The notes under the pieces: generated by a model
Told to the model about the DNA's origin: nothing
The model's database searches: none
The model's input: the letters and a program-made list of their open reading frames with translations, nothing else
Shown here: piece after piece, positions 1 through 54,145 of the stretch
How the letters are laid out: each line of letters begins with the position of its first letter
How positions within the stretch are numbered: the stretch's first letter is position 1
Made by a program: the position numbers and the translations under genes
From: a virus
Taxonomy: Duplodnaviria > Caudoviricetes
DNA: 54,145 nucleotides
IMG/VR virus record: IMGVR_UViG_3300043754_000035
Location: 1-54,145 of that record
Reading direction: 5' to 3' (one strand)

Positions 1-127
1 CGGCGGCACCACCATCGGAGTCACCCGGCACGCCGCCGCCACCCTCACCCAGTACGGCGGCATGGTCACCGCACTCCTCGTCATCGCCGTCATCATCCTC
101 CGCAAGATCCTCGACAAGCGCGCCAAG
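1..127. repeat. Terminal overlap identical to 54019-54145 (circular assembly overlap)
   Basis: Exact 127-bp identity with the window end; falls inside one continuous ORF. Confidence 0.95.
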
Positions 128-256
128 AACCAGATGGCCTCCGGCGTCTGGTGCGGCTGCACCCTCGGCCTCTCCGCAGGAGCCGCCGGCCTCACCGCCG
201 CCGTCCTCATCCCCGCCGCCAACCAGCTCGGCGTGATCCTCGGCGGCCAAGCATGA
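1..256 (+). CDS. 3' part of multi-pass membrane protein starting at 53726 (Spd-like)
   Basis: Frame continues across the junction; hydrophobic segments; TGA overlaps ATG 253. Confidence 0.8.
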   Translation, partial: GGTTIGVTRHAAATLTQYGGMVTALLVIAVIILRKILDKRAKNQMASGVWCGCTLGLSAGAAGLTAAVLIPAANQLGVILGGQA

Positions 257-810
257 CCGCCCGCGCCGCCAACCAGCTCTACAACGGCTCCCAGATCGTC
301 GCCGCACGGGTCGGCCGCGCCTTCGTCCCCGAAGGCCGGCCCGTCGCCGCCGTAGTCCGCGTCGGCATCGCCGCGTGGCTCTCGCCGTACGTCCTCAACC
401 TCGCCCACCAGGCACCACTGTGGCTCGTCGGCGGCACCTGCGCCTGGTGCATCGCCGCCTGGCGGGCGGCCAGCCGACCGGTCACCGCGCCGACCGACGC
501 CAGCCCGCGAGCCGAACACCCTCAGGAGTTCGACCCGGACGACGTCCGGTCAGAGTTCATGAGGCTCCTCGGCTACAAGCTGGCCGACCGGAAGGGCGTC
601 CACCTCGCCGACATCGCCGAGGAACTCCACGCCCAAGGCATGACCGAGTGGGACGCCCCTGCCCTCCGCCGCCAGTACGAGGCGTACGGCATCCCCGTCC
701 GCCCCCAGCTCTACATCGACGGCCGCAACCGCGCCGGCATCCACCGCGACGACCTCCAGCCGCTGCCCCTCCCCCAGGAGAGGGCCGAGGCCCTCGCCGA
801 ACCGGCCTAG
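253..810 (+). CDS. Membrane protein with C-terminal wHTH-like domain resembling the TraB DNA-binding tail, no ATPase
   Basis: ATGA overlap; two N-terminal hydrophobic segments, Pro-rich linker, C-terminal ...ALRRQYEAYGIPVRPQLYIDGRNRAGIHRDDL. Confidence 0.65.
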   Translation: MTARAANQLYNGSQIVAARVGRAFVPEGRPVAAVVRVGIAAWLSPYVLNLAHQAPLWLVGGTCAWCIAAWRAASRPVTAPTDASPRAEHPQEFDPDDVRSEFMRLLGYKLADRKGVHLADIAEELHAQGMTEWDAPALRRQYEAYGIPVRPQLYIDGRNRAGIHRDDLQPLPLPQERAEALAEPA

Positions 811-877
811 CGCCCTATGAGCTGCGAAAACACTCGCCGCCTAGTAGCCCTAGCCGAGCCCTAGACACCCCGACTAC
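805..877. repeat. Cluster of GCC(C)TAG direct repeats (clt-like candidate)
   Basis: GCCTAG 805 and 839, GCCCTAT 812, AGCCCTAG 846 and 857; CTAG is otherwise scarce. Confidence 0.6.
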
Positions 878-890
878 CCGGGAGCCCGCC

Positions 891-1019
891 ATGGACAAAG
901 CCGTCGTCGCCCTCATCCTCATGGCGATCTGCGGGGGCTTCGTGGCGGGCTACTGGGGCCTGTGCTGGCTCTACGAAACCGCCATCCACGCCGTCAAGCG
1001 CCTCCGGAGACACCGATGA
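891..1019 (+). CDS. Small membrane protein (42 aa)
   Basis: GGAG RBS; one hydrophobic helix and basic tail. Confidence 0.65.
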   Translation: MDKAVVALILMAICGGFVAGYWGLCWLYETAIHAVKRLRRHR

Positions 1020-1120
1020 TCCACCGCCTGATAACCGCCCTTACCGCCGCCTGGGCCACCTGCCCGCACTGCGGCTGGTGGGTCCAGCCCGGCCACACCT
1101 GCCACCCCGCCAACCGCTAA
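1016..1120 (+). CDS. Small Cys/His peptide MIHRLITALTAAWATCPHCGWWVQPGHTCHPANR
   Basis: ATGA overlap with previous stop; CxxC...HxC. Confidence 0.5.
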   Translation: MIHRLITALTAAWATCPHCGWWVQPGHTCHPANR

Positions 1121-1132
1121 CCGACACGCTTA

Positions 1133-1175
1133 ATGCACCCCCCGCATTGACATCTCTATGTGGGGGGTGCATATT
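1133..1175 (+). promoter_or_regulatory. Housekeeping-sigma promoter overlapped by an inverted-repeat operator
   Basis: TTGACA 1147-1152, 17 bp, CATATT 1170-1175; IR atgcaccccccgca / tgtggggggtgcat (13/14). Confidence 0.65.
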
Positions 1176-1211
1176 TGGATTCGAAGCTGGCCCACTACCC
1201 CGGAGGCAACC

Positions 1212-1724
1212 ATGGCCGTCCCCGCCAACACCAAGGTCGGCGACCGCTACCGCGATCGAGGCGGCGGCACGCACATCGTCGTCGGAATGCAGGGACGGAT
1301 GCCCATGCTGATCGAGGACTTCGAGATCCTCGACGACCCGGCCGGATTCGAATGGGACGCCTCCACCTGGGAGTGGGCCGAGAGCCACTGGGGCCCGCTC
1401 GAGCCGATCGACTCCGACCGGCGCATGACCGAGGCCGTCCTCGCCCGCTCAACCCAGAAGGACGCCATCGACGAGATCATGGCCGCGGTCCCCCCGGCTC
1501 AGCACCGCGACATGGTCAACGGCCTTCACGCCGTGCACCAATACACCGCGCAGCTCACCGAAGCACAGGCCCAGTTGGAGCGAATCGCCGCCGACCGCGC
1601 CCGGGAACTCCGCAAGCTCGTCGCGATCTTCGGCACGCAGGCCAAGACCGCCACCGTCCTCGGAATCAACCAGTCCACCCTCAGCCGCGCCCTCCGCCCG
1701 CGAGAGGGAGACAAGAGCGAATGA
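1212..1724 (+). CDS. Protein with C-terminal HTH DNA-binding domain
   Basis: GGAGG RBS; GTQAKTATVLGINQSTLSRAL. Confidence 0.75.
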   Translation: MAVPANTKVGDRYRDRGGGTHIVVGMQGRMPMLIEDFEILDDPAGFEWDASTWEWAESHWGPLEPIDSDRRMTEAVLARSTQKDAIDEIMAAVPPAQHRDMVNGLHAVHQYTAQLTEAQAQLERIAADRARELRKLVAIFGTQAKTATVLGINQSTLSRALRPREGDKSE

Positions 1725-1963
1725 CCGACACGGCCGCCCCTGACACCTGTCGGGGCGGCCACCGCTGCGAGAGGATGAGCACCATGACGCACGAGGAACT
1801 GATCGACGGCATCGCACGCTTCCCAGAGGCGCGGGCATCGGTACTGCCGAGCTGGGACCAGGCGGCCGAGGCCCTGCGCGCCGTCGGCACCGCAGGCCCC
1901 AGCCTGTCCGCCTTCTTCGCGGCCCAGGCGGACAAGGCCGACGACGCGCCCGAGGAAGGCTGA
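1721..1963 (+). CDS. Hypothetical protein
   Basis: ATGA overlap; start could be 1774 or 1783. Confidence 0.55.
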   Translation: MTDTAAPDTCRGGHRCERMSTMTHEELIDGIARFPEARASVLPSWDQAAEALRAVGTAGPSLSAFFAAQADKADDAPEEG

Positions 1964-1968
1964 GCACC

Positions 1969-2514
1969 ATGAACTCCCGCTACATCGTGCTGCTGTCCCA
2001 CCACGACGGCTCCGGACCAATCCAGGCATTCGGGCCGTACGACACCGAGGCCCAGGGCAAGACCGCGATGGCCGAGCTCCAGAACCTTCCGGCCCTCCGC
2101 GACACCGGCCGCTGGGAAGTACTGCCGTGCACCGTGACCGCCGACGAAATCCGAGCTGAGGTAAACGAGGTAGTTCAGAACGGAACTGTCCAGGTGACGG
2201 TCGCCTTTGAGTCCGCCGCTGAGACTGATGGCGGCGCAGCGGTGACCAATCCCAACCGGCCCTTCGATCGATGGGTCATCGAACCTAACAACCTCTACCA
2301 GCACACCTACAAGATCAACCCCGACTACGGCCTGAACGTCTGGGACCTTGACGTCACAGTCCACGACAGCACCGGAGCCGAAGTCACGCCCGACCGGTTC
2401 GAGGTAGACCGTGAACTGACATACAAGCTGACGGTCCTCCCAGCCGAAGACGTCTCCTACCCCGTCACCGTGACGCTCTGGCGGGCATCCGAGAGAGGAT
2501 GCGGCAAGCCATGA
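1969..2514 (+). CDS. Hypothetical protein
   Basis: Tightly packed ORF with protein-like composition. Confidence 0.7.
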   Translation: MNSRYIVLLSHHDGSGPIQAFGPYDTEAQGKTAMAELQNLPALRDTGRWEVLPCTVTADEIRAEVNEVVQNGTVQVTVAFESAAETDGGAAVTNPNRPFDRWVIEPNNLYQHTYKINPDYGLNVWDLDVTVHDSTGAEVTPDRFEVDRELTYKLTVLPAEDVSYPVTVTLWRASERGCGKP

Positions 2515-2927
2515 CCGACGACCTGGTGGCGTTCCTCCGCGCACGCCTCGACGAAGACGAGCAGACGGCGCGGGCCGCTTCGGCGGGGCCCTGGCGCGTC
2601 AACAGCGAGACGTACGCCGAGAAGATCTCGGACGCAACGGGAACCGACATCGTCGCCGGCGGCCGATGGGGCGGCGAGGCCTCGGTGTTCGAGTCGACTG
2701 AGGACGCGCTGCACATCGCCCGCCACGATCCCGCGAGGGTGCTGGCCGACGTCTACGTCAAGCGGTGCATCATCGACCAGTTCACGATGATCGAGCTTCC
2801 GGCCGAGTCCAACGGCGACACCGCCGCTGTCGGCGCGTACGTCAAGATGACAGGCGTACTGAGGCTGCTCGCCCTGCCGTGGCGTGAGCATCCCGACTAC
2901 CGGTCCGAGTGGGCACCGGAGGTCTGA
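2511..2927 (+). CDS. DUF6221-like actinophage protein
   Basis: MTDDLVAFLRARLDEDE...HDPARVLADV...LALPWREHPDYRSEW. Confidence 0.8.
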   Translation: MTDDLVAFLRARLDEDEQTARAASAGPWRVNSETYAEKISDATGTDIVAGGRWGGEASVFESTEDALHIARHDPARVLADVYVKRCIIDQFTMIELPAESNGDTAAVGAYVKMTGVLRLLALPWREHPDYRSEWAPEV

Positions 2928-3018
2928 ACGCCAGCGCGCCACAGCATTTCCGAACCACCTGCCACAGCGTCACCACATGCGGAAGGATGGCGCCGCCCAT
3001 CCCCGCAGAGGAGACACC

Positions 3019-3939: not shown

Positions 3940-4422
3940 GTGGCTGACTCGGAGGAGTGGCTGACCCCGGCGGAGACGGCGGCGCTCACGAAGCTGAGCG
4001 TTGGGACGCTGGCGAACCACCGGTACCTGGGGATCGGCATCCCGTTCACGAAGATCACGCCTGGTCGCGGCGGCCGCATCCGGTACCGGCGCAGCGATGT
4101 CGAGCGCTGGCTCACTGGCGGGGACGGGCGGGGACGGGCGGGAGGCGCGGTGAGCGCGCGGGACGAGCTGATCAAGCTGATCGCGGGCGGATCAAGCTGC
4201 GGCGGCCACTACAACTGCGGCCCGCTCGCGGAGGACTTGAGAGACGCGGCCGAGGAACTCGACGCGTTCGTGCACGAGCTCGCCGAGAAGCAGCGCGCCT
4301 GGCAGGCCGCGTACGAGACGGCTGAGCTGGCCAAGCACGGGTCCCTGGACCACGAGACCATCTTGCAGGGCAACGCGGTCCGGGCGGCCGCCGACCTGAT
4401 CGACCCGAAGGTGAAGCAGTGA
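3940..4422 (+). CDS. Excisionase/AlpA-like HTH fused in frame to a second hypothetical ORF (internal start 4150)
   Basis: WLTPAETAALTKLSVGTLANHRY...RIRYRRSDVERWL; GGAGG RBS before both 3940 and 4150. Confidence 0.7.
   Translation: MADSEEWLTPAETAALTKLSVGTLANHRYLGIGIPFTKITPGRGGRIRYRRSDVERWLTGGDGRGRAGGAVSARDELIKLIAGGSSCGGHYNCGPLAEDLRDAAEELDAFVHELAEKQRAWQAAYETAELAKHGSLDHETILQGNAVRAAADLIDPKVKQ
4121..4140. repeat. 10-bp tandem duplication GGGACGGGCG x2
   Basis: Exact tandem copies. Confidence 0.85.
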
Positions 4423-4622
4423 ACGACACCCATCCCCGCCGCATCCTCGTCGAACGCCCCAGCGAGATCGTCATCCTCGCCGCGCGGCACCTCGACAGCA
4501 CCGAAGGCATCGGACGTGCCGGACACCTGCTCACCGCGTCCGACGTCGGGGCCATCAACACCGTGCTGCGGTACGTGGCCCGCGCCCACAACAGCCCCGA
4601 CCACAACGGAGAGCAGCAGTGA
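4419..4622 (+). CDS. Hypothetical protein
   Basis: GTGA overlaps at both ends. Confidence 0.65.
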   Translation: MNDTHPRRILVERPSEIVILAARHLDSTEGIGRAGHLLTASDVGAINTVLRYVARAHNSPDHNGEQQ

Positions 4623-4915
4623 ACGACTACCCGCACCTGCTGCCGAGCAGCAACCGGGCCGCACGCGACCGCATCGAAGCCGCAATCCACGACATCCCCT
4701 GGCCCGAACAGCGCTGCATCGACGCCACTGGCGACCACCAGCGCCGCATCGCCGCCGGCATCCTGCGGAAGGCGTTCATGCCGGAGCTGGCCCGGATGCG
4801 GGCGGCCGAGGAGACGCTGCAGCGCGTCCGGAAGGTGGCCCGGCAGTACCGCGAGGACGAGGCCGTGCCCGTGCGGCGGCTGCTCGCAGCCCTGTACGGG
4901 GAGGAACGGCCGTGA
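4619..4915 (+). CDS. Hypothetical protein
   Basis: GTGA overlaps, RBS. Confidence 0.7.
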   Translation: MNDYPHLLPSSNRAARDRIEAAIHDIPWPEQRCIDATGDHQRRIAAGILRKAFMPELARMRAAEETLQRVRKVARQYREDEAVPVRRLLAALYGEERP

Positions 4916-5058
4916 GCGACGAGCCACTACCCGCCGACTTCCAGCACACGCCCTGCGGCGGCTGGTGCCTCGGAGACTGCCCAGGCTGCTGCGCCTGCGG
5001 ACGACGCGGCTGCTCTGGCTGCGTCAGGGGCGACGCCATCGACGAGGAGGGCCAGTGA
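4912..5058 (+). CDS. Small Cys-rich protein (8 Cys in 48 aa)
   Basis: GGAGG RBS, GTGA overlaps; CGGWCLGDCPGCCACGRRGCSGC. Confidence 0.6.
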   Translation: MSDEPLPADFQHTPCGGWCLGDCPGCCACGRRGCSGCVRGDAIDEEGQ

Positions 5059-5288
5059 GCGACGAGACATTGCGCATCGAGGCGGGCGAGCTTCGCCGGG
5101 TGGACGTGCGGCCCGGCGACCTGTTCGTGCTGACCGTGGCCCAGAACATGACCGTTGAGCAGGTGGCCGAACTGGGCGCCAGCTGGCGCGACCGGGTCGG
5201 CGAGGTGCCGCTCATCGTGCTGCCGCGCGGCACTGAGCTGTCTGTGTTCCGCCGGGTCGACCCTGACGAGACGGAGGACGCCTCGTGA
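5055..5288 (+). CDS. Hypothetical protein
   Basis: GGAGG RBS, GTGA overlap. Confidence 0.7.
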   Translation: MSDETLRIEAGELRRVDVRPGDLFVLTVAQNMTVEQVAELGASWRDRVGEVPLIVLPRGTELSVFRRVDPDETEDAS

Positions 5289-5443
5289 TCGTCGAGTTCG
5301 AGGTCAGCGGCCCGTTCCAGAAGCGACCGGGCTGGTACCGCAGCAACGTGACCGTCATCCGACTCTGGTGGGCATGGTTCGCAGTCGCTCTGATCAGGGG
5401 CGATTCCAGCACCCGCCGCCGCTACACCTGGGAGCAGCAGTGA
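5285..5443 (+). CDS. Hypothetical protein (52 aa)
   Basis: GGAGG RBS, GTGA overlaps at both ends. Confidence 0.55.
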   Translation: MIVEFEVSGPFQKRPGWYRSNVTVIRLWWAWFAVALIRGDSSTRRRYTWEQQ

Positions 5444-5787
5444 ACGAGCCCATCACCGAACTCGCAGCCCGCGTCCGCGCTGGCCTCCTGGCCGACGAGC
5501 AGACGGCGAAGGCCCTACTCGGCGCTGCCCGCATGATCGGCAAGACGCCGAACTTCTTCGGTGCTGGCGGACCCGCGGCGGAAGCGCTCTGGCAGCGCTT
5601 CACCGAAGGCCGCGTGCTGGCAGACGTGGCAGCGAAGCGGGCCCTGCTCGACGAGGCACTCGACTGGGAACACGGCCACGCCTTCAACGGCGAGGGCTGC
5701 CCCGTCGACCCCTGCCTCTGCGGCCGGGACGAGCGGGTTCGCGCCGTCCTCACCCTGCTCGCACAGCCCTACCGGGACGTGTCATGA
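5440..5787 (+). CDS. Second DUF6221-like protein
   Basis: LAARVRAGLLADE...RVLADVAAKRALL...LLAQPY. Confidence 0.7.
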   Translation: MNEPITELAARVRAGLLADEQTAKALLGAARMIGKTPNFFGAGGPAAEALWQRFTEGRVLADVAAKRALLDEALDWEHGHAFNGEGCPVDPCLCGRDERVRAVLTLLAQPYRDVS

Positions 5788-6211: not shown

Positions 6212-6399
6212 GCGAGTACCGCGACATCACCCCGACCTGCCGCGCGAACCGCGGTGACTACCCGGCCTTCGACCAGGCCGTTCACGACCTGTGGCACGCC
6301 TATGGAGTCCTGCTCCACCGCCACCCGGGCGCCACGTTCCGCCTTACGATCGCTCGCATCCCGGCGCAGACCGAGTCGGGTGGCGAGGCCGAGCAGTGA
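6208..6399 (+). CDS. Hypothetical protein
   Basis: GTGA overlap, AGGAG RBS. Confidence 0.6.
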   Translation: MSEYRDITPTCRANRGDYPAFDQAVHDLWHAYGVLLHRHPGATFRLTIARIPAQTESGGEAEQ

Positions 6400-6508
6400 C
6401 CACCGCCGCCTCGGTGCGCCAGCATCAGCCGCGCGGCGTAGCGCCCGTTACCGGGCCCGAGAACACCACCGCCCGACTCTGCAACGGATTCCCTGGAGAT
6501 GGCCCAGC

Positions 6509-7894
6509 GTGAGTAACACCGTCCGCAGCTACCAGCCGCGCGGCGCAGCACTCGAAGCGTTCCACACCCGCGCGGCCGAGGTGCTGCTGAGCGGCCCGGC
6601 CGGTACGGGCAAGTCGAGGGCGTGCCTGGAGAAGCTGCACATGATGGCGCTCGTCAACCCGGGCATGCGCGGGCTGATCGTGCGGAAGACGAGGGAGTCG
6701 TTGGGCTCGACGGCGCTGGTGACGTGGCGCGAGCACGTGATCAAGGAGGCGCTGGAGAAGGGCCTCGTGTACTTCTACGGCGGCAGCGCGGAGGAGCCGC
6801 CGCAGTACCGGTACGTGAACAACAAGTCGGCGATCATCATTGGCGGGATGGACAAACCCACCAAGATCATGTCTTCCGAGTACGACGTCGTCTACGCCCA
6901 GGAAGCCACCGAACTCACCGTCACCGACTGGGAGAACATCACGACCCGACTCCGCAACGGAAAAGTCTCGTTCCAGCAGCTGATCGCCGACTGCAACCCC
7001 GACACCCCCACCCACTGGCTCAAGCAGCGATGCGACCGCGGCGACACCCTCATGATCCACTGCCGCCACGAGGACAACCCCACCCTCTTCACCAACGACG
7101 GCATCCTCACCGCCCGCGGGCGCGCCTACATCGCCAAGCTTGAACGCCTCACCGGCGTCCGCTTCCAGCGACTCCGCAAAGGCCTGTGGGTCGCAGCCGA
7201 AGGCCTCATCTACGAGGACTTCGACCCCACGGTCCACCTCGTCAACCCGTTCCCCATCCCCGCGTCGTGGTCCAGGTGGTGGGTGGTTGATTTCGGGTTC
7301 ACCAACCCGTTCGTCCTGCAGTGCTGGGCCGAAGACCCCGACGGCCGCCTCTGGCTGTACCGCGAGATCTACCGCACCAAGCGCCTCGTCGAAGACCATG
7401 CCAAGCACATCCTCCGCTTGGTCCGCCGATGCGCAGCGTGCTGCGAGTCCAAGGCCAAGGACCACGACTGCCACGACTGCAAGGCCTGCCGCCTCGAATG
7501 GACCGAGCCCCGGCCGCGCGCGGTCATCTGCGACCACGACGCCGAGGACCGCGCCACCTTGGAGCGCCACCTCGGCATGGGCACCAGCCCGGCGAAGAAG
7601 ACCGTCAAGGACGGCATCCAAGCCGTCCAATCCCGGCTCCGCCCCGCAGGCGACGGCAAGCCGCGCCTGTTCATCCTCCGCGACGCGCTTGTCGAACGTG
7701 ACCCCGAGCTCGAGGACGCCAAGAAGCCCTGCTCCACCGCTGAGGAGATCGTCGGCTACATCTGGGACGCCCAGCCCGGCAAGCCCCCGAAGGAGGCGCC
7801 GGTGAAGGAGAACGACCACGGCATGGACGACATGCGCTACATCGTCGCCGAGCTCGACCTCGGCGGCCGACCACGGGTGCGCACGCTGGGCTGA
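6509..7894 (+). CDS. terL: Terminase large subunit
   Basis: Walker A GPAGTGKS, Walker B-like YDVVYAQE, NP motif, nuclease VDFGFTNP and DHGMDDMRY; precedes portal. Confidence 0.93.
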   Translation: MSNTVRSYQPRGAALEAFHTRAAEVLLSGPAGTGKSRACLEKLHMMALVNPGMRGLIVRKTRESLGSTALVTWREHVIKEALEKGLVYFYGGSAEEPPQYRYVNNKSAIIIGGMDKPTKIMSSEYDVVYAQEATELTVTDWENITTRLRNGKVSFQQLIADCNPDTPTHWLKQRCDRGDTLMIHCRHEDNPTLFTNDGILTARGRAYIAKLERLTGVRFQRLRKGLWVAAEGLIYEDFDPTVHLVNPFPIPASWSRWWVVDFGFTNPFVLQCWAEDPDGRLWLYREIYRTKRLVEDHAKHILRLVRRCAACCESKAKDHDCHDCKACRLEWTEPRPRAVICDHDAEDRATLERHLGMGTSPAKKTVKDGIQAVQSRLRPAGDGKPRLFILRDALVERDPELEDAKKPCSTAEEIVGYIWDAQPGKPPKEAPVKENDHGMDDMRYIVAELDLGGRPRVRTLG

Positions 7895-7925: not shown

Positions 7926-8165
7926 ATGACGGCAGTGATCGGCGAGGTCCCCGCAGCTCGACGCCCGCGCATCCCGGGCGCCGTCGTGCTGCTCGCCCGC
8001 CGCGCCGCCGACCACGCCAAGGCCACCGCCGCGCGCCTCTCCGGCAGCCTGCTCACCGCCGCCGGCCTCGGCTGCATCGACGTTGGCGCTTTCGAGGCCC
8101 ACCCAATCGCCGGATGGGTCGTCACGGGCATCTCGCTGATGGCCCTGGAATGGACGCTTGAGTGA
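7926..8165 (+). CDS. Small membrane protein before portal
   Basis: Two hydrophobic segments; GTGA overlap with portal. Confidence 0.7.
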   Translation: MTAVIGEVPAARRPRIPGAVVLLARRAADHAKATAARLSGSLLTAAGLGCIDVGAFEAHPIAGWVVTGISLMALEWTLE

Positions 8166-9532
8166 GCGGCCTCTTCGGGAAGCTCATAGCCAAGGCTGGC
8201 GGGGCCTCGGCCGAGCCGCCCGTGTCCTACGCCGCGCACGGCTTCGCCTCCATGGGTGCCGGCAACGCCGGATCGGACCCGGGCAGCTACATGCGCGCCT
8301 ACGGCTCGTCAGGCACCGTCTTCTCCATCGTCAGCATGCTGGCCCGGCAGACCGCCAAGCACGACTGGCACCTCTACCGGCAGCAGCCGCAAGACGGACG
8401 CCGCCGCTACACCACCGGCGACAAGGGCTCCGATCAGCGCATCGAGGTCATCAAGCACCTCGCGATCGCGCTGTGGAACAAACCGAACGACTTCATGAGC
8501 GGCTTTCAGCTCCGCGAGCTGTCCCAGACGTACCTCGACCTCACCGGCGAGAGCTACATCATCGTGCAGCGCGACGGCCGCGCGACGTTCCCGATCGGCC
8601 TTTGGCCGGCGCGGCCGGACCGGATGTTCCCAGTACCGGGCCGTGATCAGTTCTTGCAGGGCTACATCTACCAGGGGCCGTCGGGCGAGAAGGTGCCGCT
8701 GCAGCCCAACGAAGTGATCATGACGAAGTACCCGAACCCGTTCGACATTTACCACGGGCTCGGGCCGATCCAGTCGATCCTCGTCGACATCGACGCCGCG
8801 AAGTACAGCGCGCAGTGGAACAGGAACTTCTTCCTGAACAGCGCCACCCCCGGCGGCGTCATCCAGGTCGACAAGCGGCTCAGCGATGACGAGTGGAACG
8901 AGTTCACCAACCGCTGGCGCGAGTCCCACCGCGGTGTTGGCGCAGCGCACCGCGTCGCCGTGCTGGAGCAGGGCGCGGTGTGGGTGCCGAACGCGCACAC
9001 GATCAGGGACATGGATTTCGCCGGGCTCCGCAACATCTCCCGCGACGTCATCCGCGAAGCGTTCGCCATGCACAAGGCGATCCTCGGCACCTCCGACGAC
9101 GTCAACCGCGCCAACTCCCAGACCGCACAGGAGCACTTCGAGTCGTTCCTGATCGCCGACCGGCTCGACCGGTGGCGCGACACCCTCAACTGCAGCTACT
9201 TGCCCCTGTTCGGCTCCACCGGTGAGGGCGTCGAGATGGACCACGACGACCCGGTCACCGGCAACCGCGAAGCCGACGCGCTGGAGCTCAAGTCGAAGGC
9301 GCAGGCCGCGCTGTGGCTCGTCGGCGCGGGCTACGACCCGTCCGACGTGCTGGAGACAGTGGGCCTCCCGGACATGGGCGTGGTGGAGCAGGCGACGCAG
9401 GCCCCGGCGCTGCCGCCCGCGTGGGTGCCCGCAGCGCCCGCCGGACCCGAGCCGGAGCAGGACGACGACGGCGACGCCTTGGAGGCGCTGATGGCCAAGC
9501 AGCTGGCCTGGAACAAGGCAGGTGCCCGATGA
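8162..9532 (+). CDS. Portal protein (HK97 family)
   Basis: L.GESY, PDRM, NPFD.YHGLGPI, N.NFF.N.ATPGG motifs; synteny. Confidence 0.92.
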   Translation: MSGLFGKLIAKAGGASAEPPVSYAAHGFASMGAGNAGSDPGSYMRAYGSSGTVFSIVSMLARQTAKHDWHLYRQQPQDGRRRYTTGDKGSDQRIEVIKHLAIALWNKPNDFMSGFQLRELSQTYLDLTGESYIIVQRDGRATFPIGLWPARPDRMFPVPGRDQFLQGYIYQGPSGEKVPLQPNEVIMTKYPNPFDIYHGLGPIQSILVDIDAAKYSAQWNRNFFLNSATPGGVIQVDKRLSDDEWNEFTNRWRESHRGVGAAHRVAVLEQGAVWVPNAHTIRDMDFAGLRNISRDVIREAFAMHKAILGTSDDVNRANSQTAQEHFESFLIADRLDRWRDTLNCSYLPLFGSTGEGVEMDHDDPVTGNREADALELKSKAQAALWLVGAGYDPSDVLETVGLPDMGVVEQATQAPALPPAWVPAAPAGPEPEQDDDGDALEALMAKQLAWNKAGAR

Positions 9533-9810
9533 CGACCCCACCGCAGCCTCCGCCGTTCGACCCGGGCAACCAACTCCTCGGCGAGACCCCGGCGCAGATC
9601 ACCACCGCGCTGGTCGACACCCCGCGCGGGCAGCGCATGGCGCTGACCGTCCGCACCGGCTCGACGACGATGACCGTGTTCCTGTCCCGAGACGATGCGC
9701 ACGCGTGGGCTCAGCCCATCAACACCTCCGCCGGGCAGATGTCCGGGCTGCTCCTGGTCGGCGCCGGGGCGATGCCGCTCGGCGAGCCAGGAGAGGCGGT
9801 GGCGCGGTGA
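9529..9810 (+). CDS. Hypothetical protein
   Basis: ATGA/GTGA overlaps between portal and protease. Confidence 0.7.
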   Translation: MTTPPQPPPFDPGNQLLGETPAQITTALVDTPRGQRMALTVRTGSTTMTVFLSRDDAHAWAQPINTSAGQMSGLLLVGAGAMPLGEPGEAVAR

Positions 9811-11111
9811 ACCGCGACGCGATGCGGCGCTCGGCGCAGCGCATCACCAACCTCGTCCAGCAGCCCAAGAGCAGCTGGTACCGGGTGCTCCGCAACGACG
9901 CCGGCGGCCCGACCCGAGTCGACATCTATGACGAGATCGGCGGTGGCGGCTGGTTCTCCAGCGGCGTGACCGCTGTCGACTTCGTCAACGAGCTGGCGTC
10001 CATCAACGGCGACATCGAGGTCCACATCAACAGCCCTGGTGGGGACGTCTTCGACGGCTTGGCGATCTACAACTCGCTGGCGCAGCGCCCCGGCAAGGTC
10101 ACCACCGTCGTTGATGGCATCGCCGCGTCGGCGGCGTCGTTCATCGCGATGGCCGGGACGCAGAGGCTGATCTGCCCCGGCGCGATGATGATGATCCACG
10201 ACGCGTCCGGGCTGTGTATGGGCAACGCCGCGGACATGCGTGAGACCGCCGAACTCCTCGACAAGGTCAGCGACAACATCGCGGGCATCTACGCCGACCA
10301 GACCGGCCGCGCGGACGGCTGGCGCGACGCGATGCAGCAGGAGACCTGGTACAACGCCGACGAGGCCGTGGCCGCCGGGCTCGTGCACAAGCTCGCGGAG
10401 CGTCCGGCGCAGGACGCGCTCGCCGCAGCGGCCCACTTCGACCTAAGTCTGTACGCGCACGCCCCGCGCCTGCAGAACGCCGACCAGCACAGCCCGTTCA
10501 CCGGCACCCACACCCACGCGCACCCCGCCTTCGGCGACCAGGGCGGCGACGGCAGCCACGAACACGAGCACAGCCACGACGGCGACGCCGAACACCACCA
10601 CACCCACGCCACGGAGAACCGGGCACCAGGGCGGGTGTTGGGCGTCGAGTCGATGCCGCTGACCAACGAGGCACTCCCGGTCCACCACACCGCCACGGTG
10701 GACGAGCCGTGGGACGGCCCAGCCGCCGTCGCCGCGATGCCCAACGACGCCACCGTGCTGCGCTACTGCCACGCGTGGGAGGACTCGGCAGCCGACGACG
10801 GCACCGCCGATGACCCTGACGGCGACGCCGACGACAAGAAGGCGTCGTTCAAGTTCCCCCACCACGAGACCAAGGGTGGTCCAGCGAACCTTGCGGCCTG
10901 CCGCAACGGGTTGGCCCGGCTTGAGGGTTCGAGCATCCCCGAGGCCGACAAGGCGGGCGTGCGGAAGCACCTGCAGGCGCACCTCGACGACGCCCACGAG
11001 GGCGACGACGACGGCGGCACCGACAACCATGCCGGGATCCCCGGCTGGTTCCACGACCACAGCGCGCCGGCCCCGGCGTGGCTGCACAACCACGCCGAGG
11101 AGGCGCAGTGA
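9807..11111 (+). CDS. ClpP-like (S14) prohead maturation protease with His-rich linker and extra C-terminal domain
   Basis: INSPGGDVFDGLAIYN, DGIAASAASFIAMAG, MMIHDA, ETWYNADEAV. Confidence 0.9.
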   Translation: MNRDAMRRSAQRITNLVQQPKSSWYRVLRNDAGGPTRVDIYDEIGGGGWFSSGVTAVDFVNELASINGDIEVHINSPGGDVFDGLAIYNSLAQRPGKVTTVVDGIAASAASFIAMAGTQRLICPGAMMMIHDASGLCMGNAADMRETAELLDKVSDNIAGIYADQTGRADGWRDAMQQETWYNADEAVAAGLVHKLAERPAQDALAAAAHFDLSLYAHAPRLQNADQHSPFTGTHTHAHPAFGDQGGDGSHEHEHSHDGDAEHHHTHATENRAPGRVLGVESMPLTNEALPVHHTATVDEPWDGPAAVAAMPNDATVLRYCHAWEDSAADDGTADDPDGDADDKKASFKFPHHETKGGPANLAACRNGLARLEGSSIPEADKAGVRKHLQAHLDDAHEGDDDGGTDNHAGIPGWFHDHSAPAPAWLHNHAEEAQ

Positions 11112-20079: not shown

Positions 20080-20219
20080 GGCACGCGCGGCTCGTCCTCG
20101 GGCTGTGCGACCGGTGGCACAAGCTGCCCAGCGAGGTGCTGGCCGAACCCGCCGAGATGCTGCGGCTGTTGAAGATTCTGGAGCTGGGAGGAGGGGACGA
20201 CCGTGACCAACCTCGTTGA
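19989..20219 (+). CDS. Tail assembly chaperone -1 frameshift extension
   Basis: Slippery C CCT TTG at 19989-19995; -1 frame open to 20219 (..LCDRWHKLPSEVLAE..). Confidence 0.75.
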   Translation, partial: PFVADLQRWAAVGAGGVDSDGRPLVEPRELRHARLVLGLCDRWHKLPSEVLAEPAEMLRLLKILELGGGDDRDQPR

Positions 20220-27764: not shown

Positions 27765-27904
27765 GCGGGTGGCTGTGGGGTGCGTGGGGCCAGATCTGGC
27801 CGAACCTGGCCGCCAACGTCCTGTGGGTGCCGCTGGCCGCCGCCCATCACGTCCTGATCCGCCGCCACATCACCCAGCTACACCAACTGAAGGAGACGCC
27901 GTGA
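27761..27904 (+). CDS. Small membrane peptide (47 aa)
   Basis: ATGA and GTGA overlaps; MSGWLWGAWGQIWPNLAANVLWVPL. Confidence 0.6.
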   Translation: MSGWLWGAWGQIWPNLAANVLWVPLAAAHHVLIRRHITQLHQLKETP

Positions 27905-28536: not shown

Positions 28537-28538
28537 CC

Positions 28539-28796: not shown

Positions 28797-28807
28797 TGGG
28801 AGATCAC

Positions 28808-42893: not shown

Positions 42894-42988
42894 CGGCGCG
42901 CCCCTGACGGCCCGTGGCGGGACTGGCCGCGAGCCTCCCGCCATGGGCGACCAACCACCGACCGCACCAGCCGAGAGAAGAGCCGCAC

Positions 42989-51048: not shown

Positions 51049-51075
51049 GCGGTCAGTATGCCATGCCAGTTCGCC

Positions 51076-51124: not shown

Positions 51125-51169
51125 GTAGTCATCAAGCCGCACCGAGCCGCAGATGACCCGGAGGACAAC

Positions 51170-52291: not shown

Positions 52292-53278
52292 ATGGCTGCC
52301 ACGCGCCATACCCTCAAGCACCACGCCCCACGCATCATCGCCGCAGTCTTCACCGCCGCCAGCGCCGCATGGACCCTCTACAGCGTCTGGGACCTACTCG
52401 GCGTCGGCCCCGTCGCCATCACCGCCGGAACCGGCGCGGAAGGCCTGTGGGTCGGCGGAATGCTTGCCTACCGGGCCCAGCGCACGAAACTCACCTGCAC
52501 CGCGATGCTCGCCGGCCTCGCCGGAACCCTCGCCATCCTCGCCGTCCACGGATTCGGCGCCTACGGGTGGGGCGGCATCGTCGCCGTCGTCCCCCCGCTT
52601 GCCGCCGAGCTCTTCTGGCACGTCGACGCCCAACTCACCGCCGACCCCACCGCGCTCACCACCGAGCAGCAGGACGAGGTCAACGACGTCCTCCGCCAGG
52701 CCCGGCACATCACCGCCCGTGCCGCAGCAGATCAGGCACGCGAGGACGCCGAGCACGCCGCGAAGCTCGCCCGCATCCGCCGCGACGGCGAACTCCGCCA
52801 GGCCGAAGACCTCGCCGACTTCGACGTGGCCGTTAGCCGGATCGACATGCAACGGCAGATCACCCGCCGCGCGCCGCTCATGCTCCCCGCCCCGCCGGCG
52901 CCCGAGGACACCGACGGAGACGGCCCGGACAAGCCAGGCGGACAGCGTCCACCTGTGTCCGCGGACGTCCTGTCCGCTGTCCGCGCCGCCCTTGAGTTCA
53001 TGTCCGACGCCACCCCCGAGGCCATCGCCGAGCAGCTCGATCAGGCAGGCGTGCCAGCACCCACCGGCGGCCTGTCCGGACAGCCGGACACCAGCTCAGC
53101 CCAGGTACTCCACCTTGCGGGCGACCCGGGCAGCGGGAGCATCGCGGACACCGTCCGCCGGGCATACCACGCCCTCGGACGCGACCACGAAGCCGTCCTC
53201 GCCTACGTCCGCCGACACCACGGCCCCAACGTCAAGCCGGACACCGTCGCCAAGACACTCCGACGCGTCGCCGGTTGA
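52292..53278 (+). CDS. SpdB-like membrane protein (about 4 TM helices, coiled coil, C-terminal HTH-like domain)
   Basis: GGAG RBS; hydrophobic N-terminal third, charged helical middle, ..AVLAYVRRHHGPNVKPDTVAKTLRR. Confidence 0.7.
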   Translation: MAATRHTLKHHAPRIIAAVFTAASAAWTLYSVWDLLGVGPVAITAGTGAEGLWVGGMLAYRAQRTKLTCTAMLAGLAGTLAILAVHGFGAYGWGGIVAVVPPLAAELFWHVDAQLTADPTALTTEQQDEVNDVLRQARHITARAAADQAREDAEHAAKLARIRRDGELRQAEDLADFDVAVSRIDMQRQITRRAPLMLPAPPAPEDTDGDGPDKPGGQRPPVSADVLSAVRAALEFMSDATPEAIAEQLDQAGVPAPTGGLSGQPDTSSAQVLHLAGDPGSGSIADTVRRAYHALGRDHEAVLAYVRRHHGPNVKPDTVAKTLRRVAG

Positions 53279-53296
53279 AGGAGACGGACATGTCCG
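52926..53296. repeat. Array of 13 CGGACA/TGTCCG motifs including palindromes TGTCCGGACA and CGGACATGTCCG
   Basis: Copies at 52926, 52939, 52956, 52971, 52978, 53001, 53073, 53077, 53085, 53145, 53238, 53285, 53291. Confidence 0.85.
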
Positions 53297-53436
53297 CGCT
53301 GCTCTGGGCGCTCCCCGCCCTCCTCGCACTCGCCGGCCTCTACCGCGCCAAGCCCAACAGCCGGCACACCGTCCGCCTCGCCGCAGCCATCACCCTCTGG
53401 GCCACCTGCATCTGCCTGATCATCACCTGGAGCTGA
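53290..53436 (+). CDS. Small two-TM membrane protein (48 aa)
   Basis: AAGGAG RBS; two hydrophobic segments. Confidence 0.65.
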   Translation: MSALLWALPALLALAGLYRAKPNSRHTVRLAAAITLWATCICLIITWS

Positions 53437-53438
53437 CC

Positions 53439-53729
53439 ATGCCCCAGATCCACCCCGAACGCCTCCGGCCCGGCTACAACGCCACAGCCGCCGTCGGCAG
53501 CCTCATCGCCGCACCCGCCTGGGCCCACGCGCTCACCGCGTCCACCAGCGCCGGACCGCTCGCCCCACTCGGCCTCACCGCCGCCGCGTTCCTCACGGTC
53601 GGCGTCGCCAACTGGGCCGTGCCGTGCTGGCCCACCCGCGCCGCCCTCTACGTCCCCGCCACCGCCCTGGCCATCAGCCCGGCCGCCGCCCACGCCGTCC
53701 TCACCTTCACCACCGGAGCCCACCCGTGA
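53439..53729 (+). CDS. Membrane protein (96 aa)
   Basis: GGAG RBS; hydrophobic; GTGA overlap with next gene. Confidence 0.7.
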   Translation: MPQIHPERLRPGYNATAAVGSLIAAPAWAHALTASTSAGPLAPLGLTAAAFLTVGVANWAVPCWPTRAALYVPATALAISPAAAHAVLTFTTGAHP

Positions 53730-54145
53730 CCGTCACCATCAGCCTCGGCGGCCTGTTCATCGGCCTCGTCTTGCTCCTCCGCCAGTTCCTCCCCGCCGCA
53801 TGGGCCGCCGCCATGAAGAAGGTCGGCCGACCCGGCGGCGACCACGAGCACCACCACGGCACGGGCAAGTTCAACATCCGCGAGCACCTGCCGTTCGTCC
53901 TCGGCGCCATCCTCGGCATGCTCGCCATCGCCTGCCCCGGCGGCGTCCTCGGCAGCATCGCCGCGAAGATCGTCGGATTCAGCAACGCCGCAGGAGACAA
54001 GGTCCTCGCCGCAGGCTCCGGCGGCACCACCATCGGAGTCACCCGGCACGCCGCCGCCACCCTCACCCAGTACGGCGGCATGGTCACCGCACTCCTCGTC
54101 ATCGCCGTCATCATCCTCCGCAAGATCCTCGACAAGCGCGCCAAG
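53726..54145 (+). CDS. 5' part of multi-pass membrane protein continuing to 256
   Basis: GGAG RBS, GTG; several TM segments, short His-rich loop. Confidence 0.75.
   Translation, partial: MTVTISLGGLFIGLVLLLRQFLPAAWAAAMKKVGRPGGDHEHHHGTGKFNIREHLPFVLGAILGMLAIACPGGVLGSIAAKIVGFSNAAGDKVLAAGSGGTTIGVTRHAAATLTQYGGMVTALLVIAVIILRKILDKRAK
54019..54145. repeat. Terminal overlap identical to 1-127
   Basis: Exact identity. Confidence 0.95.

What the first reader, a model, noticed from the sequence alone, without database searches (positions are those of the whole stretch)
253..810. TraB-like membrane anchor plus DNA-binding tail, with no translocase ATPase
Seen: two N-terminal hydrophobic segments, a Pro-rich linker and a C-terminal domain (HLADIAEELH...WDAPALRRQY..YGIPVR.QL.I.GRNRAGI.RDDL); no Walker A. 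Known: Streptomyces plasmid TraB is an FtsK-like protein with TM N-terminus, ATPase and a C-terminal wHTH that binds clt repeats. Inference from recalled similarity: this is a mini-TraB that could tether phage DNA to the membrane or septa, or interfere with plasmid TraB.
Basis: partly seen in the sequence, partly recalled or inferred. Interest (0 to 1): 0.75.

Follow-up and report, generated by a model that had tools for sequence, protein, structure and literature searches.

The report
Phage copy of plasmid-spread membrane protein
This gene of a temperate Streptomyces-type phage encodes a small membrane-anchored protein of an unnamed family that sits in a block of membrane-protein genes shared with Streptomyces conjugative plasmids, so it looks like part of a plasmid-style DNA "spread" apparatus rather than a cut-down TraB motor.

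Summary
The ORF at 253-810 (+) is a real gene (185 aa). It has two moderately hydrophobic N-terminal segments, a Pro/acid-rich linker and a conserved C-terminal domain of about 80 aa. It has no Walker A motif. It belongs to a large unnamed family: 533 clusters at 50% identity, every named hit seen is "hypothetical", from Streptomyces or Kitasatospora.

The "mini-TraB" reading is not supported. HMM and profile comparisons find no similarity to two TraB proteins. No family member examined carries an ATPase. The phage encodes no FtsK/TraB, and there is no clt-like repeat array.

The gene is one unit of a conserved, translationally coupled operon of membrane proteins. The operon comprises an SpdB/DUF2637-like protein, small TM proteins, a 4-TM protein and this family. 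It recurs upstream of the terminase in many actinophages and prophages (VWB gp24-26, Kromp gp82-85). Its parts recur in GntR-controlled tra/spd operons of Streptomyces plasmids.

Best reading: it is a membrane-anchored adaptor in a phage-borne Spd-like (plasmid spread) module. The function is inferred, not shown.

A winged-helix-like fold for the C-domain rests only on the ESM Atlas's own model (TM 0.57-0.71).

The parts
253..810 (+). The finding: 185-aa protein P0001, member of an unnamed Streptomycetaceae mobile-element family
   Evidence: GC3 0.92; 533 cluster representatives; every hit that carries a name is 'hypothetical protein'
253..339 (+). Residues 1-29: conserved basic N-terminal motif (RL..GS..VARR.GRAF.P), net charge +3, inferred cytoplasmic
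   Evidence: Alignment A1: G12, R22, F24, P26 invariant; R8, L9, R19, A23 nearly invariant. Charge. Topology is inference (positive-inside rule).
340..468 (+). Residues 30-72: two moderately hydrophobic segments joined by a 4-residue loop (TM hairpin). R36 lies in the first segment and the W-C-x-A-A-W-R motif ends the second.
   Evidence: Hydropathy. W65, C66, A68, A69, W70, R71 invariant in A1. R36 and W65 are >=90% conserved in the 125-sequence A2.
469..552 (+). Residues 73-100: variable Pro/acid-rich linker
   Evidence: 5 Pro in 28 residues, net charge -3. Length is variable across the family.
553..771 (+). Residues 101-173: conserved C-terminal alpha/beta domain (GDRxGVHL...LRxxLxxxGIPVR..KV.G...GVHRDDL), possibly winged-helix-like
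   Evidence: Alignment A6. The ESM Atlas model of residues 90-176 has TM by query 0.68-0.71 to DUF3631-region models and 0.57 to an FtsK/SpoIIIE cluster. Only sub-threshold hits otherwise: histone H1 globular domain E 0.1; SAP, HeH, TFA2 winged helix E>=0.011.
52292..53278 (+). First gene of the module: 328 aa with hydrophobic N-terminal segments (four by my reading of the sequence; no hydropathy count was run on this protein), then a charged, probably helical stretch and a C-terminal region. SpdB/DUF2637-like.
   Evidence: BLASTP to pIJ101 SpdB gives E 9e-5, 25% identity over 204 aa. Its family HMM recruits pIJ101 SpdB at E 1.2e-5 and DUF2637-positive proteins (Kromp gp82, L054, L058) in a small local database (Pfam). 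A weak tblastn hit lies in the pSAM1 GntR-flanked operon.
53275..53436 (+). 53-aa protein with two hydrophobic segments by my reading of the sequence; start overlaps the previous stop
   Evidence: Genes of about 50 aa, counted as 2 TM by the script, hold the same position in many related loci.
53439..53729 (+). 96-aa hydrophobic protein
   Evidence: GC3 frame plot and ORF. No family hit.
53726..54145 (+). N-terminal 140 codons of the 182-aa membrane protein, four hydrophobic segments by my reading of the sequence (phrog_16379). The gene runs across the 127-bp terminal repeat and ends at 256.
   Evidence: DTR, start GTG 53726 with GGAG upstream; phrog_16379 E 2.4e-16; the family HMM hits the 172-aa protein just upstream of the FtsK/SpoIIIE gene of a Kitasatospora plasmid at E 7.6e-36, the VWB gp25 C-terminal half at 5e-47 and Kromp gp84 at 3e-32.
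2..256 (+). C-terminal 84 codons of the same 182-aa protein. Its TGA (254-256) overlaps the ATG of the finding.
   Evidence: phrog_16379 E 2.8e-11
891..1019 (+). 42-aa protein with one hydrophobic segment by my reading, downstream of the finding
   Evidence: A small gene counted as 1 TM by the script (about 82 aa) follows the family gene in many related loci.
1016..1120 (+). 34-aa Cys/His-rich (CxxC...C.H) peptide, the last gene of the unit; start overlaps the previous stop
   Evidence: No family hit.
1133..1175 (+). 18-nt inverted repeat embedding a sigma-70-like promoter. It marks the end of the module's transcription unit and the start of the next.

Best explanation
P0001 is a small inner-membrane protein. 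A two-segment hydrophobic hairpin holds both ends in the cytoplasm (inferred). A flexible acidic/Pro-rich linker carries a conserved domain of about 80 aa that may have a winged-helix-like fold.

It is not a truncated TraB. It is one subunit of a phage-borne Spd-like ('spread') module: a translationally coupled operon of membrane proteins. In the window the order is the SpdB/DUF2637-like 328-aa protein, a 53-aa protein, a 96-aa protein, the 182-aa 4-TM protein, P0001, a 42-aa protein and a 34-aa peptide. The component families also occur in GntR-regulated tra/spd operons of Streptomyces conjugative plasmids.

By analogy with the plasmid Spd complex, I infer that the module assembles in the hyphal membrane or at septal cross-walls. 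P0001 would act as an adaptor whose cytoplasmic domain contacts DNA or a DNA translocase. The phage encodes no translocase, so any motor would be the host's or a resident plasmid's. The effect would be to help phage DNA move between hyphal compartments.

Shown: gene reality, family, architecture, synteny, and plasmid homologues of three module proteins. Inferred: topology, complex formation, DNA or translocase contact, and the spreading function.
For: Family and architecture:
- 533 cluster representatives at E<=1e-3. The listed best 150 are mostly about 180-290 aa.
- The same 2-segment + linker + C-domain layout is seen in phage VWB gp26 and in the 288-aa protein of a linear plasmid.

Operon structure in the window:
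- Stop/start overlaps at 53275/53278, 53726/53729, 253/256 and 1016/1019.
- Thoma et al. [quoted passage not shown]

Synteny:
- 44 family genes were called in 50 related loci (35 IMG/VR, 15 genomic).
- 40 of the 44 have a same-strand gene ending <60 nt upstream. 22 of these 40 belong to the 182-aa protein's family.
- A protein of 240 aa or more (38 called), most with 2-4 hydrophobic segments, lies within 2.7 kb upstream.
- DUF2637 is above Pfam's cut-off in 5 of 22 viral and 3 of 15 genomic head proteins scanned, and in VWB gp24 (1.2e-35), Kromp gp82 and plasmid L003.

Plasmid links:
- Family members lie in GntR<->WhiB...DUF2637 operons of two linear plasmids.
- They also lie in a 14-kb circular plasmid (full HMM E 6e-15) and in pSNA1. 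There were 13 + 13 plasmid records by tblastn.
- The 4-TM neighbour's family HMM hits the gene directly upstream of FtsK/SpoIIIE (TraB) in a Kitasatospora plasmid at E 7.6e-36.
- The 328-aa head protein matches pIJ101 SpdB.

Literature:
- Thoma et al. [quoted passage not shown]

Other functions placed elsewhere:
- The lysis cassette is elsewhere: endolysin at 27901-28536.
- No PADLOC defence model hits any of the 13 module or relative proteins scanned.
Against: - No experiment or expression datum bears on function.
- None of the plasmid Spd proteins with genetic evidence was shown to be a member of P0001's own family. pIJ101 was scanned and has none. pSVH1, pJV1 and pSN22 sequences could not be obtained.
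- In my small sample the three families do not all co-occur on one plasmid. The Kitasatospora locus has the 4-TM family and TraB but no P0001 relative.
- The phage has no TraB/FtsK, so the plasmid mechanism cannot be copied unchanged.
- The C-domain is on average slightly acidic (mean net charge -1.2, range -10 to +6, n=125). This sits poorly with strong non-specific DNA binding and fits a protein-protein contact as well.
- The fold lead rests on a model with mean pLDDT 0.60.
- 18 of the 40 immediately upstream genes are not detectably related to the 182-aa protein.
Confidence: 0.5

Rival explanations
1. Exclusion or interference module. The membrane proteins, P0001 among them, block entry or spread of incoming DNA (other phages or conjugative plasmids), for example by occupying or poisoning the TraB/FtsK-type translocation site. 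This includes the first reader's 'interfere with plasmid TraB'.
For: Small phage membrane proteins often act in superinfection exclusion, and conjugative tra operons commonly carry entry-exclusion genes (both general knowledge, not tested here). The phage carries Spd-like parts but no translocase. [quoted passage not shown]
Against: The module lies on the strand of, and directly after, the replication/early genes and before the packaging genes. It is about 19 kb from the integrase-repressor region at 30-36 kb, which is not the usual place for lysogeny-expressed exclusion genes. No PADLOC hit for 13 proteins scanned. No promoter-like site of its own was found in 50000-54145.
Confidence: 0.17
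2. Membrane tether for phage DNA replication or packaging. P0001 would anchor phage DNA or the replisome to the membrane through its C-domain, as phi29 p16.7 does (recalled, not tested), without any role in intercompartment transfer.
For: The architecture fits: membrane anchor + linker + small putative nucleic-acid-binding domain. The gene lies between the replication genes (replication initiator 42914-43909) and the terminase (6254-7894).
Against: This does not explain why the same family sits in GntR-controlled tra/spd operons of plasmids, including rolling-circle-type small plasmids. It does not explain why the gene is always embedded among several other membrane proteins. C-domain charge is not basic.
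Confidence: 0.12
3. Mini-TraB: a TraB/FtsK derivative that lost its ATPase but kept the TraB membrane anchor and the clt-binding wHTH.
For: The ESM Atlas model of residues 90-176 aligns with an actinobacterial FtsK/SpoIIIE cluster model at TM 0.57 by query. The whole protein aligns at 0.44 with an 'FtsK family' cluster. The PHROG hit is to positions 72-199 of a 565-position profile.
Against: No sequence similarity to two TraBs by BLASTP, HMM or hhalign. In 5 whole genomes the C-domain profile finds only the known family genes; the weak hits I inspected (E 0.2-0.6; not all weak rows were opened) are helicase motifs or non-coding frames. Longer relatives (8 examined: P0081, P0103, P0152, P0159 and four genomic forms of 216-438 aa) show no ATPase: no Walker A in the four genomic ones by pattern search, none seen on reading the other four, two of which carry a second C-domain. 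The search for longer homologues found none (weak evidence). There is no clt-like 8-mer array: only 3 8-mers reach 4 copies per 300 bp, all far from the gene, and GACCCGGA occurs 7 times, scattered.
Confidence: 0.04
4. Lysis-related or host-killing membrane proteins (holin/pinholin-like or 'kil' function), with P0001 as a regulator.
For: Several small TM proteins occur in a row. Unregulated plasmid tra/spd genes are toxic (Kil-Kor; PMC4447253 introduction).
Against: The endolysin and three small downstream genes form a separate cassette at 27901-29433. The module's families are shared with non-lytic plasmids.
Confidence: 0.05

Closest known systems
Spd (spread) proteins of Streptomyces conjugative plasmids (pIJ101 SpdA/SpdB/KilB; pSVH1 SpdB3-Spd79-SpdB2, Spd198)
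   Same: Small, diverse, mostly membrane proteins encoded in operons with overlapping stops and starts. The window's head protein matches pIJ101 SpdB. P0001's family and the 4-TM family occur in GntR-controlled plasmid tra/spd operons.
   Different: P0001's own family has not been shown to include any genetically defined Spd protein. pIJ101 has no member, and pSVH1, pJV1 and pSN22 could not be compared. Here the operon is in a tailed temperate phage with no TraB.
TraB, the FtsK-like dsDNA translocase of Streptomyces plasmids
   Same: Membrane association at the N-terminus and a small C-terminal domain. There is a predicted-fold resemblance to an FtsK/SpoIIIE cluster model (TM 0.57). TraB belongs to the same functional neighbourhood in plasmids.
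   Different: No ATPase or Walker A. No detectable sequence similarity in either end to two TraBs. pIJ101 Tra's C-terminus is MarR-like by Pfam and this domain is not. No clt repeats.
Streptomyces phage VWB gp24-gp25-gp26 and phage Kromp gp82-gp85
   Same: The same module in isolated phages. VWB gp26 and Kromp gp85 are family members (C-domain HMM E 1.5e-23 and 1e-22). gp24 and gp82 are DUF2637. The gp25 C-terminal half and gp84 belong to the 4-TM family.
   Different: All are annotated 'hypothetical protein'. VWB gp26 is 36.5% identical to P0001 over residues 57-168. VWB lacks the separate small genes in the same form.
C-terminal region of DUF3631 (PF12307) primase/helicase-type proteins of actinobacterial phages and elements
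   Same: Best named structural neighbours of the Atlas model of residues 90-176: TM by query 0.68-0.71 in 4 cluster types.
   Different: No sequence-level match. PF12307 is not among the families listed for the 125 full-length members (first 25 of 60 families shown) or among the 17 families found for the 40 domain-only members. Those proteins are soluble enzymes and this one is a membrane protein. That this region is a winged helix is my recollection, not a result.
phi29 p16.7 (membrane-anchored DNA-binding organiser of phage replication)
   Same: Works-like analogy only: N-terminal membrane anchor, spacer, small C-terminal DNA-binding domain, no enzymatic domain (recalled).
   Different: No comparison was run (no sequence in hand). 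It has a different host group, one TM rather than a hairpin, and is not part of a multi-membrane-protein operon shared with plasmids.

Membership tests
TraB / FtsK-SpoIIIE DNA translocases | FtsK/SpoIIIE P-loop ATPase domain (Walker A/B) | tested here: not met
   No Pfam hit at E<=10. No Walker A pattern. PF01580 and a plasmid TraB find nothing in the whole phage at E<=1. The PF01580 control rang in 14 of 14 control genomes.
TraB / FtsK-SpoIIIE DNA translocases | C-terminal wHTH homologous to that of TraB/FtsK-gamma | tested here: not met
   Sequence level: the C-domain HMM and hhalign against Kitasatospora TraB and pIJ101 Tra give no match to the TraB C-termini. No FtsK_gamma or MarR-type Pfam hit appears in what was listed for the 125 full-length members (first 25 of 60 families shown) or among the 17 families for the 40 domain sequences.
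TraB / FtsK-SpoIIIE DNA translocases | Winged-helix fold of the C-terminal domain | tested here: inconclusive
   Only the ESM Atlas's own model is available (pLDDT 0.60).
TraB / FtsK-SpoIIIE DNA translocases | Cognate clt: array of direct 8-bp repeats bound by the wHTH | tested here: not met
   No 8-mer reaches 4 copies per 300 bp near the gene. Only 3 such cases exist in the window, at about 10.5, 13.1 and 20.4 kb. The 811-890 spacer has just two AGCCCTAG copies.
Spd (spread) proteins of Streptomyces plasmids | Encoded in an operon of several small, diverse, mostly membrane proteins with overlapping stop/start codons | tested here: met
   Seven co-directional genes from 52292 to 1120 (across the junction), with four 4-nt overlaps. 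The definition is taken from the PMC4447253 introduction.
Spd (spread) proteins of Streptomyces plasmids | Homologues located in plasmid tra/spd operons next to a GntR-type TraR/KorA regulator | tested here: met
   L003 and L004 (linear plasmids), L044 (14 kb) and pSNA1.
Spd (spread) proteins of Streptomyces plasmids | Sequence relationship to a genetically defined Spd protein | tested here: inconclusive
   Met for the neighbour (328-aa protein ~ pIJ101 SpdB). Not met for P0001 itself: there is no member in pIJ101, and pSVH1, pJV1 and pSN22 were not available for comparison.
Spd (spread) proteins of Streptomyces plasmids | Required for pock formation / intramycelial spreading | not testable with these tools
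   Needs genetics.
PHROG 5650 (phage proteins of unknown function) | Significant match to the family profile | tested here: met
   E 2.8e-15, residues 51-177 against profile positions 72-199 of 565.
Known anti-phage defence systems (PADLOC) | Match to any PADLOC model | tested here: not met
   0 hits for 13 proteins at E<=0.01.

The most novel reading that the evidence does not exclude
Temperate phages of mycelial actinomycetes carry a TraB-less Spd-like apparatus. It would let naked phage DNA pass septal cross-walls from one hyphal compartment to the next, by recruiting a host FtsK-type or resident-plasmid TraB motor. P0001's winged-helix-like domain would be the adaptor that couples phage DNA or the borrowed motor to the membrane channel. 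That would be a virion-independent, conjugation-like route of phage spread within a multicellular bacterium.
Probability: 0.22. Interest if true: 0.8.

Novelty: new member of a known kind. Interest (0 to 1): 0.5.

Why it matters
Plasmid spreading through Streptomyces mycelium depends on Spd proteins whose mechanisms are almost all unknown. [quoted passage not shown]

This analysis defines a conserved, multi-gene Spd-like module in many actinophages and prophages. The C-domain profile matched 18 of 63 genomes of one GTDB genus. It adds an unnamed, widespread family (2-TM hairpin + conserved cytoplasmic domain) as a regular component, shared with plasmid tra/spd operons.

This gives a concrete, genetically tractable handle (VWB gp24-26, Kromp gp82-85) on two questions. 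Do phages of multicellular bacteria move DNA between compartments? What do the non-motor parts of the Streptomyces dsDNA transfer machinery do? It also corrects an attractive but unsupported 'mini-TraB' label.

Tried and rejected
No model of my own exists, so fold search could not be used.
- Complex prediction (SpdB-like + 4-TM + family member of locus L014, alignments A3-A5) was unavailable.

Searches that found nothing useful:
- No RNA holder was listed for window 1-3000.
- PDB sequence/profile searches gave only sub-threshold hits: histone H1x E 0.1, FlhA 0.43, HisE 0.48, XC_3703 0.25.
- NCBIfam gave 0 hits for 18 members.
- Pfam on 125 members and on 40 C-domains gave only scattered hits at E>=0.0018 (SAP 7 of 125, HeH, TFA2 winged helix).
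- The ESM Atlas feature search restricted to named clusters gave no usable hit.
- PF12307 was not found on 5 plasmids, but the control rang nowhere, so this is uninformative.
- The search for longer homologues found none (weak evidence).
- tblastn of the neighbours against plasmids gave only one weak hit each. BLAST of module neighbours against the first plasmid and phage loci found only P0001's relatives.
- hhalign of the DUF2637-type alignment A5 against pIJ101 SpdB was negative (probability 0.2%), although the window's own 328-aa protein does match SpdB.
- Weak genome hits of the C-domain profile proved to be helicase motifs or non-coding frames.

Literature:
- The phiC31 genome paper is not held. 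The VWB genome paper was not looked up (I assumed a subscription journal); it is known only from the reference list. I therefore could not see which VWB or phiC31 genes were called SpdB2 homologues.
- Searches for DUF2637 (2 papers, neither on function), SpdB2+phage (5), phage+intramycelial+Streptomyces (11) and pSNA1 (1) found no description of this family. These were read as listings only.
- No supplements were consulted. Table S6 of PMC4447253 (interaction data) might bear on Spd198-type proteins.

Rejected readings: holin/lysis accessory, defence system and mini-TraB (see rival explanations).
Full report
**1. What the window is**

The window is a complete virus record of 54,145 bp with a 127-bp direct terminal repeat, so it is a circularly permuted genome. 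G+C is about 69%.

It is a temperate tailed phage of a Streptomyces-like host. The annotated landmarks are:
- terminase 6254-7894, portal 8162-9532, Clp-type protease and capsid 9807-12505;
- tape measure 20203-22848 and endolysin 27901-28536;
- integrase 33611-34861 on the minus strand, with regulators;
- a replication initiator at 42914-43909.

The finding lies at the very end of the long rightward early/replication gene block. Across the permutation point, that is just before the block that leads to the terminase.

**2. The observation**

ORF 253-810 (+) gives 185 aa. Codon-position G+C (0.76/0.51/0.92) marks it as coding from ATG 253. The upstream in-frame extension is not coding. Homologues start at the same residue.

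- a conserved basic N-terminus, residues 1-29, net charge +3;
- two moderately hydrophobic segments at about 30-50 and 55-72, separated by four residues;
- a Pro/acid-rich linker, residues 73-100;
- a conserved C-terminal domain, about residues 101-173;
- no Walker A motif.

I infer an N-in/C-in hairpin from the charge distribution; this was not computed by a topology predictor.

**3. The family**

Pfam, NCBIfam and PADLOC give nothing. PHROG 5650 (unknown function) matches at E 2.8e-15.

A word-indexed search found 18 relatives. A full HMMER profile search found 533 cluster representatives at E<=1e-3 and 231 at E<=1e-10, the listed best 150 mostly about 180-290 aa. Every named hit in a second profile search is 'hypothetical protein' from Streptomyces or Kitasatospora.

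The conserved features are:
- G12 and an RR.GRAF.P motif;
- R36 inside the first hydrophobic segment;
- a W-C-x-A-A-W-R motif at the end of the second segment;
- the C-domain motifs GDRxGVHL, LRxxLxxxGIPVR and G(V/I)HRDDL.

Longer members show no ATPase. Two (P0081, P0103) contain two copies of the C-domain. Others have longer N-termini or linkers. I saw no P-loop motif on reading the four long sequences fetched, and a Walker A pattern search on the four further genomic forms of 216-438 aa found none. A search restricted to longer proteins found none (weak evidence).

The C-domain profile matches 18 of 63 genomes of one GTDB genus centred on a Streptomyces genome, with up to three copies per genome.

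**4. Is it TraB-like?**

I took two TraB-type proteins. One is the FtsK/SpoIIIE protein of a Kitasatospora plasmid (P0169). The other is Tra of pIJ101, which Pfam reads as FtsK_SpoIIIE plus a MarR-type C-terminal wHTH.

- BLASTP, the family HMMs and hhalign with the whole-protein profile (A1) or the C-domain profile (A6) give no meaningful match to either. hhalign probabilities are 0.06-1.3%.
- In five whole genomes the C-domain profile finds only the known family genes. The weak hits I opened are a helicase motif or non-coding frames.
- The phage has no FtsK/SpoIIIE domain and nothing like the plasmid TraB.
- There is no clt-like array of 8-bp repeats near the gene or anywhere convincing. The spacer 811-890 holds only two AGCCCTAG copies.

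So the 'mini-TraB' membership fails on the ATPase, on sequence relationship at both ends and on the clt.

What survives is a fold-level lead. The ESM Atlas holds this exact sequence (its model: pTM 0.38, mean pLDDT 0.60). Residues 90-176 of that model align with DUF3631-region models of actinobacterial or phage primase-helicase proteins at TM 0.68-0.71 (normalised by the query). They align with an actinobacterial FtsK/SpoIIIE cluster at 0.57, and with a D5_N/Prim-Pol cluster at 0.57.

Sub-threshold sequence hits also fall on DNA-binding helical modules: histone H1 globular domain E 0.1, SAP, HeH/LEM and TFA2 winged helix. The conserved pattern (helix, short strand + helix, helix, two-stranded hairpin) is compatible with a winged helix, but that is my reading.

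The domain's mean net charge is -1.2, so a protein-binding role is as likely as DNA binding.

**5. The surroundings: a conserved membrane-protein operon**

Upstream and downstream genes are co-directional and tightly packed:

| Coordinates | Product |
|---|---|
| 52292-53278 | 328 aa: hydrophobic N-terminal segments (four by my reading), a charged stretch, a C-terminal region |
| 53275-53436 | 53 aa, two hydrophobic segments by my reading |
| 53439-53729 | 96 aa, hydrophobic |
| 53726 across the repeat to 256 | 182 aa, four hydrophobic segments by my reading, phrog_16379 |
| 253-810 | P0001 |
| 891-1019 | 42 aa, one hydrophobic segment by my reading |
| 1016-1120 | 34 aa, Cys/His-rich |

Four junctions are 4-nt stop/start overlaps. 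After 1120 comes an 18-nt inverted repeat that embeds a good sigma-70-like promoter (1147-1175), presumably the start of the next unit.

The same arrangement recurs in related sequences. It reads: large protein with hydrophobic segments, about 50-aa 2-TM, sometimes about 100 aa, 130-190-aa 4-TM, family member, often an 82-aa 1-TM.

- It occurs in 35 IMG/VR loci and 15 genomic loci.
- 44 family genes were called in these 50 loci. 40 have a same-strand gene ending within 60 nt upstream. 22 of these 40 belong to the 182-aa protein's family; 18 do not detectably.
- In 10 of the 15 genomic loci a terminase and/or portal lies 2-7 kb downstream. These are of several different Pfam types, so the module travels between phage lineages but keeps its place.
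- Among isolated phages I found it only in VWB (gp24-gp26) and Kromp (gp82-gp85), all annotated 'hypothetical'.

**6. The link to conjugative plasmids**

(a) P0001's family. tblastn finds it on 13 Streptomyces plasmids, and a divergent member finds 13. On two linear plasmids it is the last gene of a block GntR<->WhiB - x - DUF2637 (515 aa) - small - 346 aa - 146 aa - family (288 aa). On a 14-kb circular plasmid it lies in GntR<->WhiB - 189 - 163 - family (299 aa) ... DUF2637. On pSNA1 it follows the GntR-flanked genes but is split over two frames. pIJ101 has none.

(b) The 4-TM neighbour. An HMM built only from phage and prophage sequences hits the 172-aa gene immediately upstream of the FtsK/SpoIIIE (TraB) gene of a Kitasatospora plasmid at E 7.6e-36. 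It hits a paralogue two genes before at 5e-23.

(c) The 328-aa head protein. It aligns with pIJ101 SpdB, a named plasmid transfer/spread protein (BLASTP E 9e-5). Its family HMM recruits SpdB (1.2e-5, small local database) together with DUF2637-positive proteins. Positional equivalents are DUF2637 by Pfam in VWB gp24 (1.2e-35), Kromp gp82, plasmid L003, 5 of 22 viral head proteins and 3 genomic ones above the cut-off. VWB gp24 finds 342 plasmid records, nearly all Streptomyces.

Thoma et al. 2015 (PMC4447253; abstract, introduction and passages read) describe spd genes as 3-7 diverse genes in operons, often with overlapping stops and starts. The encoded membrane proteins form a multiprotein complex with TraB. 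[quoted passage not shown]

The module here fits that description, except that it has no TraB.

**7. Mechanism**

Most likely (about 0.5): P0001 is a membrane-anchored adaptor subunit of a phage-borne Spd-like complex. The hairpin, with its conserved Arg and Trp/Cys motif, would dock it to the other membrane subunits. The linker would let the cytoplasmic domain reach DNA or a translocase. The module as a whole would promote passage of phage DNA between hyphal compartments, using a host or plasmid motor. Everything after 'membrane-anchored subunit of a conserved Spd-like operon' is inference.

Rivals:
- exclusion of, or interference with, incoming DNA or TraB (0.17);
- a p16.7-like membrane tether for replication or packaging (0.12);
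- a lysis or kil accessory (0.05);
- a true TraB derivative (0.04).

The position of the module bears on these. It lies in the lytic-direction block, far from the immunity region. No promoter-like site of its own was found. The lysis cassette is separate. There are no PADLOC hits. These points argue mildly against exclusion and lysis. The plasmid distribution argues against a replication-only tether.

**8. Novelty and verdict**

The kind (Spd-type spread proteins, and their occasional presence on actinophages) is in print. This particular family and the conserved multi-gene phage module are not described in the library searched (listings only). All database names seen are 'hypothetical'.

I file it as a new member of a known kind. 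Interest is moderate (0.5): the 'mini-TraB' is not real, but the module is a clean, testable entry point to an open question.

Limits:
- no structure or complex prediction was possible;
- there are no expression data;
- pSVH1, pJV1 and pSN22 Spd sequences were not obtained;
- the phiC31 genome paper is not held and the VWB genome paper was not consulted;
- E-values from local scripts refer to small databases.

Noticed in passing
window 1133-1175: An 18-nt inverted repeat (89% complementary, 4 nt apart) embeds a sigma-70-like promoter (TTGACA, 17 nt, CATATT; 10 of 12). It lies right after the last module gene and before gene 1212-1724. The half-site is unique in the window. It looks like an operator-controlled promoter for the next transcription unit.
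   Followed up: partly
window 1-127 = 54019-54145: A 127-bp direct terminal repeat means the record is circularly permuted. The 182-aa 4-TM gene upstream of the finding is cut by the window ends.
   Followed up: yes
L077 (pSNA1, NC_002149.1) about 4378-5138: The family member on pSNA1 is split between two reading frames and is not annotated; a minus-strand ORF is annotated there instead. This is either a frameshift in an old sequence or a pseudogene.
   Followed up: partly
L001 (phage VWB) 4544-6384: VWB gp26 as annotated (253 aa) overlaps gp25 by about 170 nt. The family alignment begins near its residue 60, so the annotated start is probably too far upstream. The C-terminal half of gp25 is a homologue of the window's 182-aa 4-TM protein.
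   Followed up: partly
L043 (Kromp gp79), L036:2294-3814, L058:5800-6909: A family-2 glycosyltransferase with TM segments sits directly upstream of the module in three unrelated loci. The window has none there.
   Followed up: no
window 2511-2927 and 5440-5787: Two DUF6221 paralogues (E 4.7e-35 and 2.3e-8) lie in the block between the module and the terminase.
   Followed up: no
window 47256-48056: A 266-aa protein combines phrog_1590 (E 1.7e-51) with a WhiB-like C-terminus. WhiB genes also head the plasmid operons that carry the family (L003, L004, L044).
   Followed up: no
L054:14882-16843: The minor capsid protein (Phage_min_cap2) of this prophage carries an intein-splicing domain match (E 1.3e-5).
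   Followed up: no
window 51170-51514: A 114-aa protein has an N-terminal DUF6011 zinc-ribbon-like motif and a C-terminal CxC...CxH pattern, just upstream of the module.
   Followed up: no
CP108727.1 and CP109521.1 (S. anulatus plasmids, about 27-28 kb): On both plasmids, tblastn places a family member and, about 2 kb downstream, a stretch like the C-terminus of pIJ101 SpdB. These may be good plasmids on which to study the two together.
   Followed up: no
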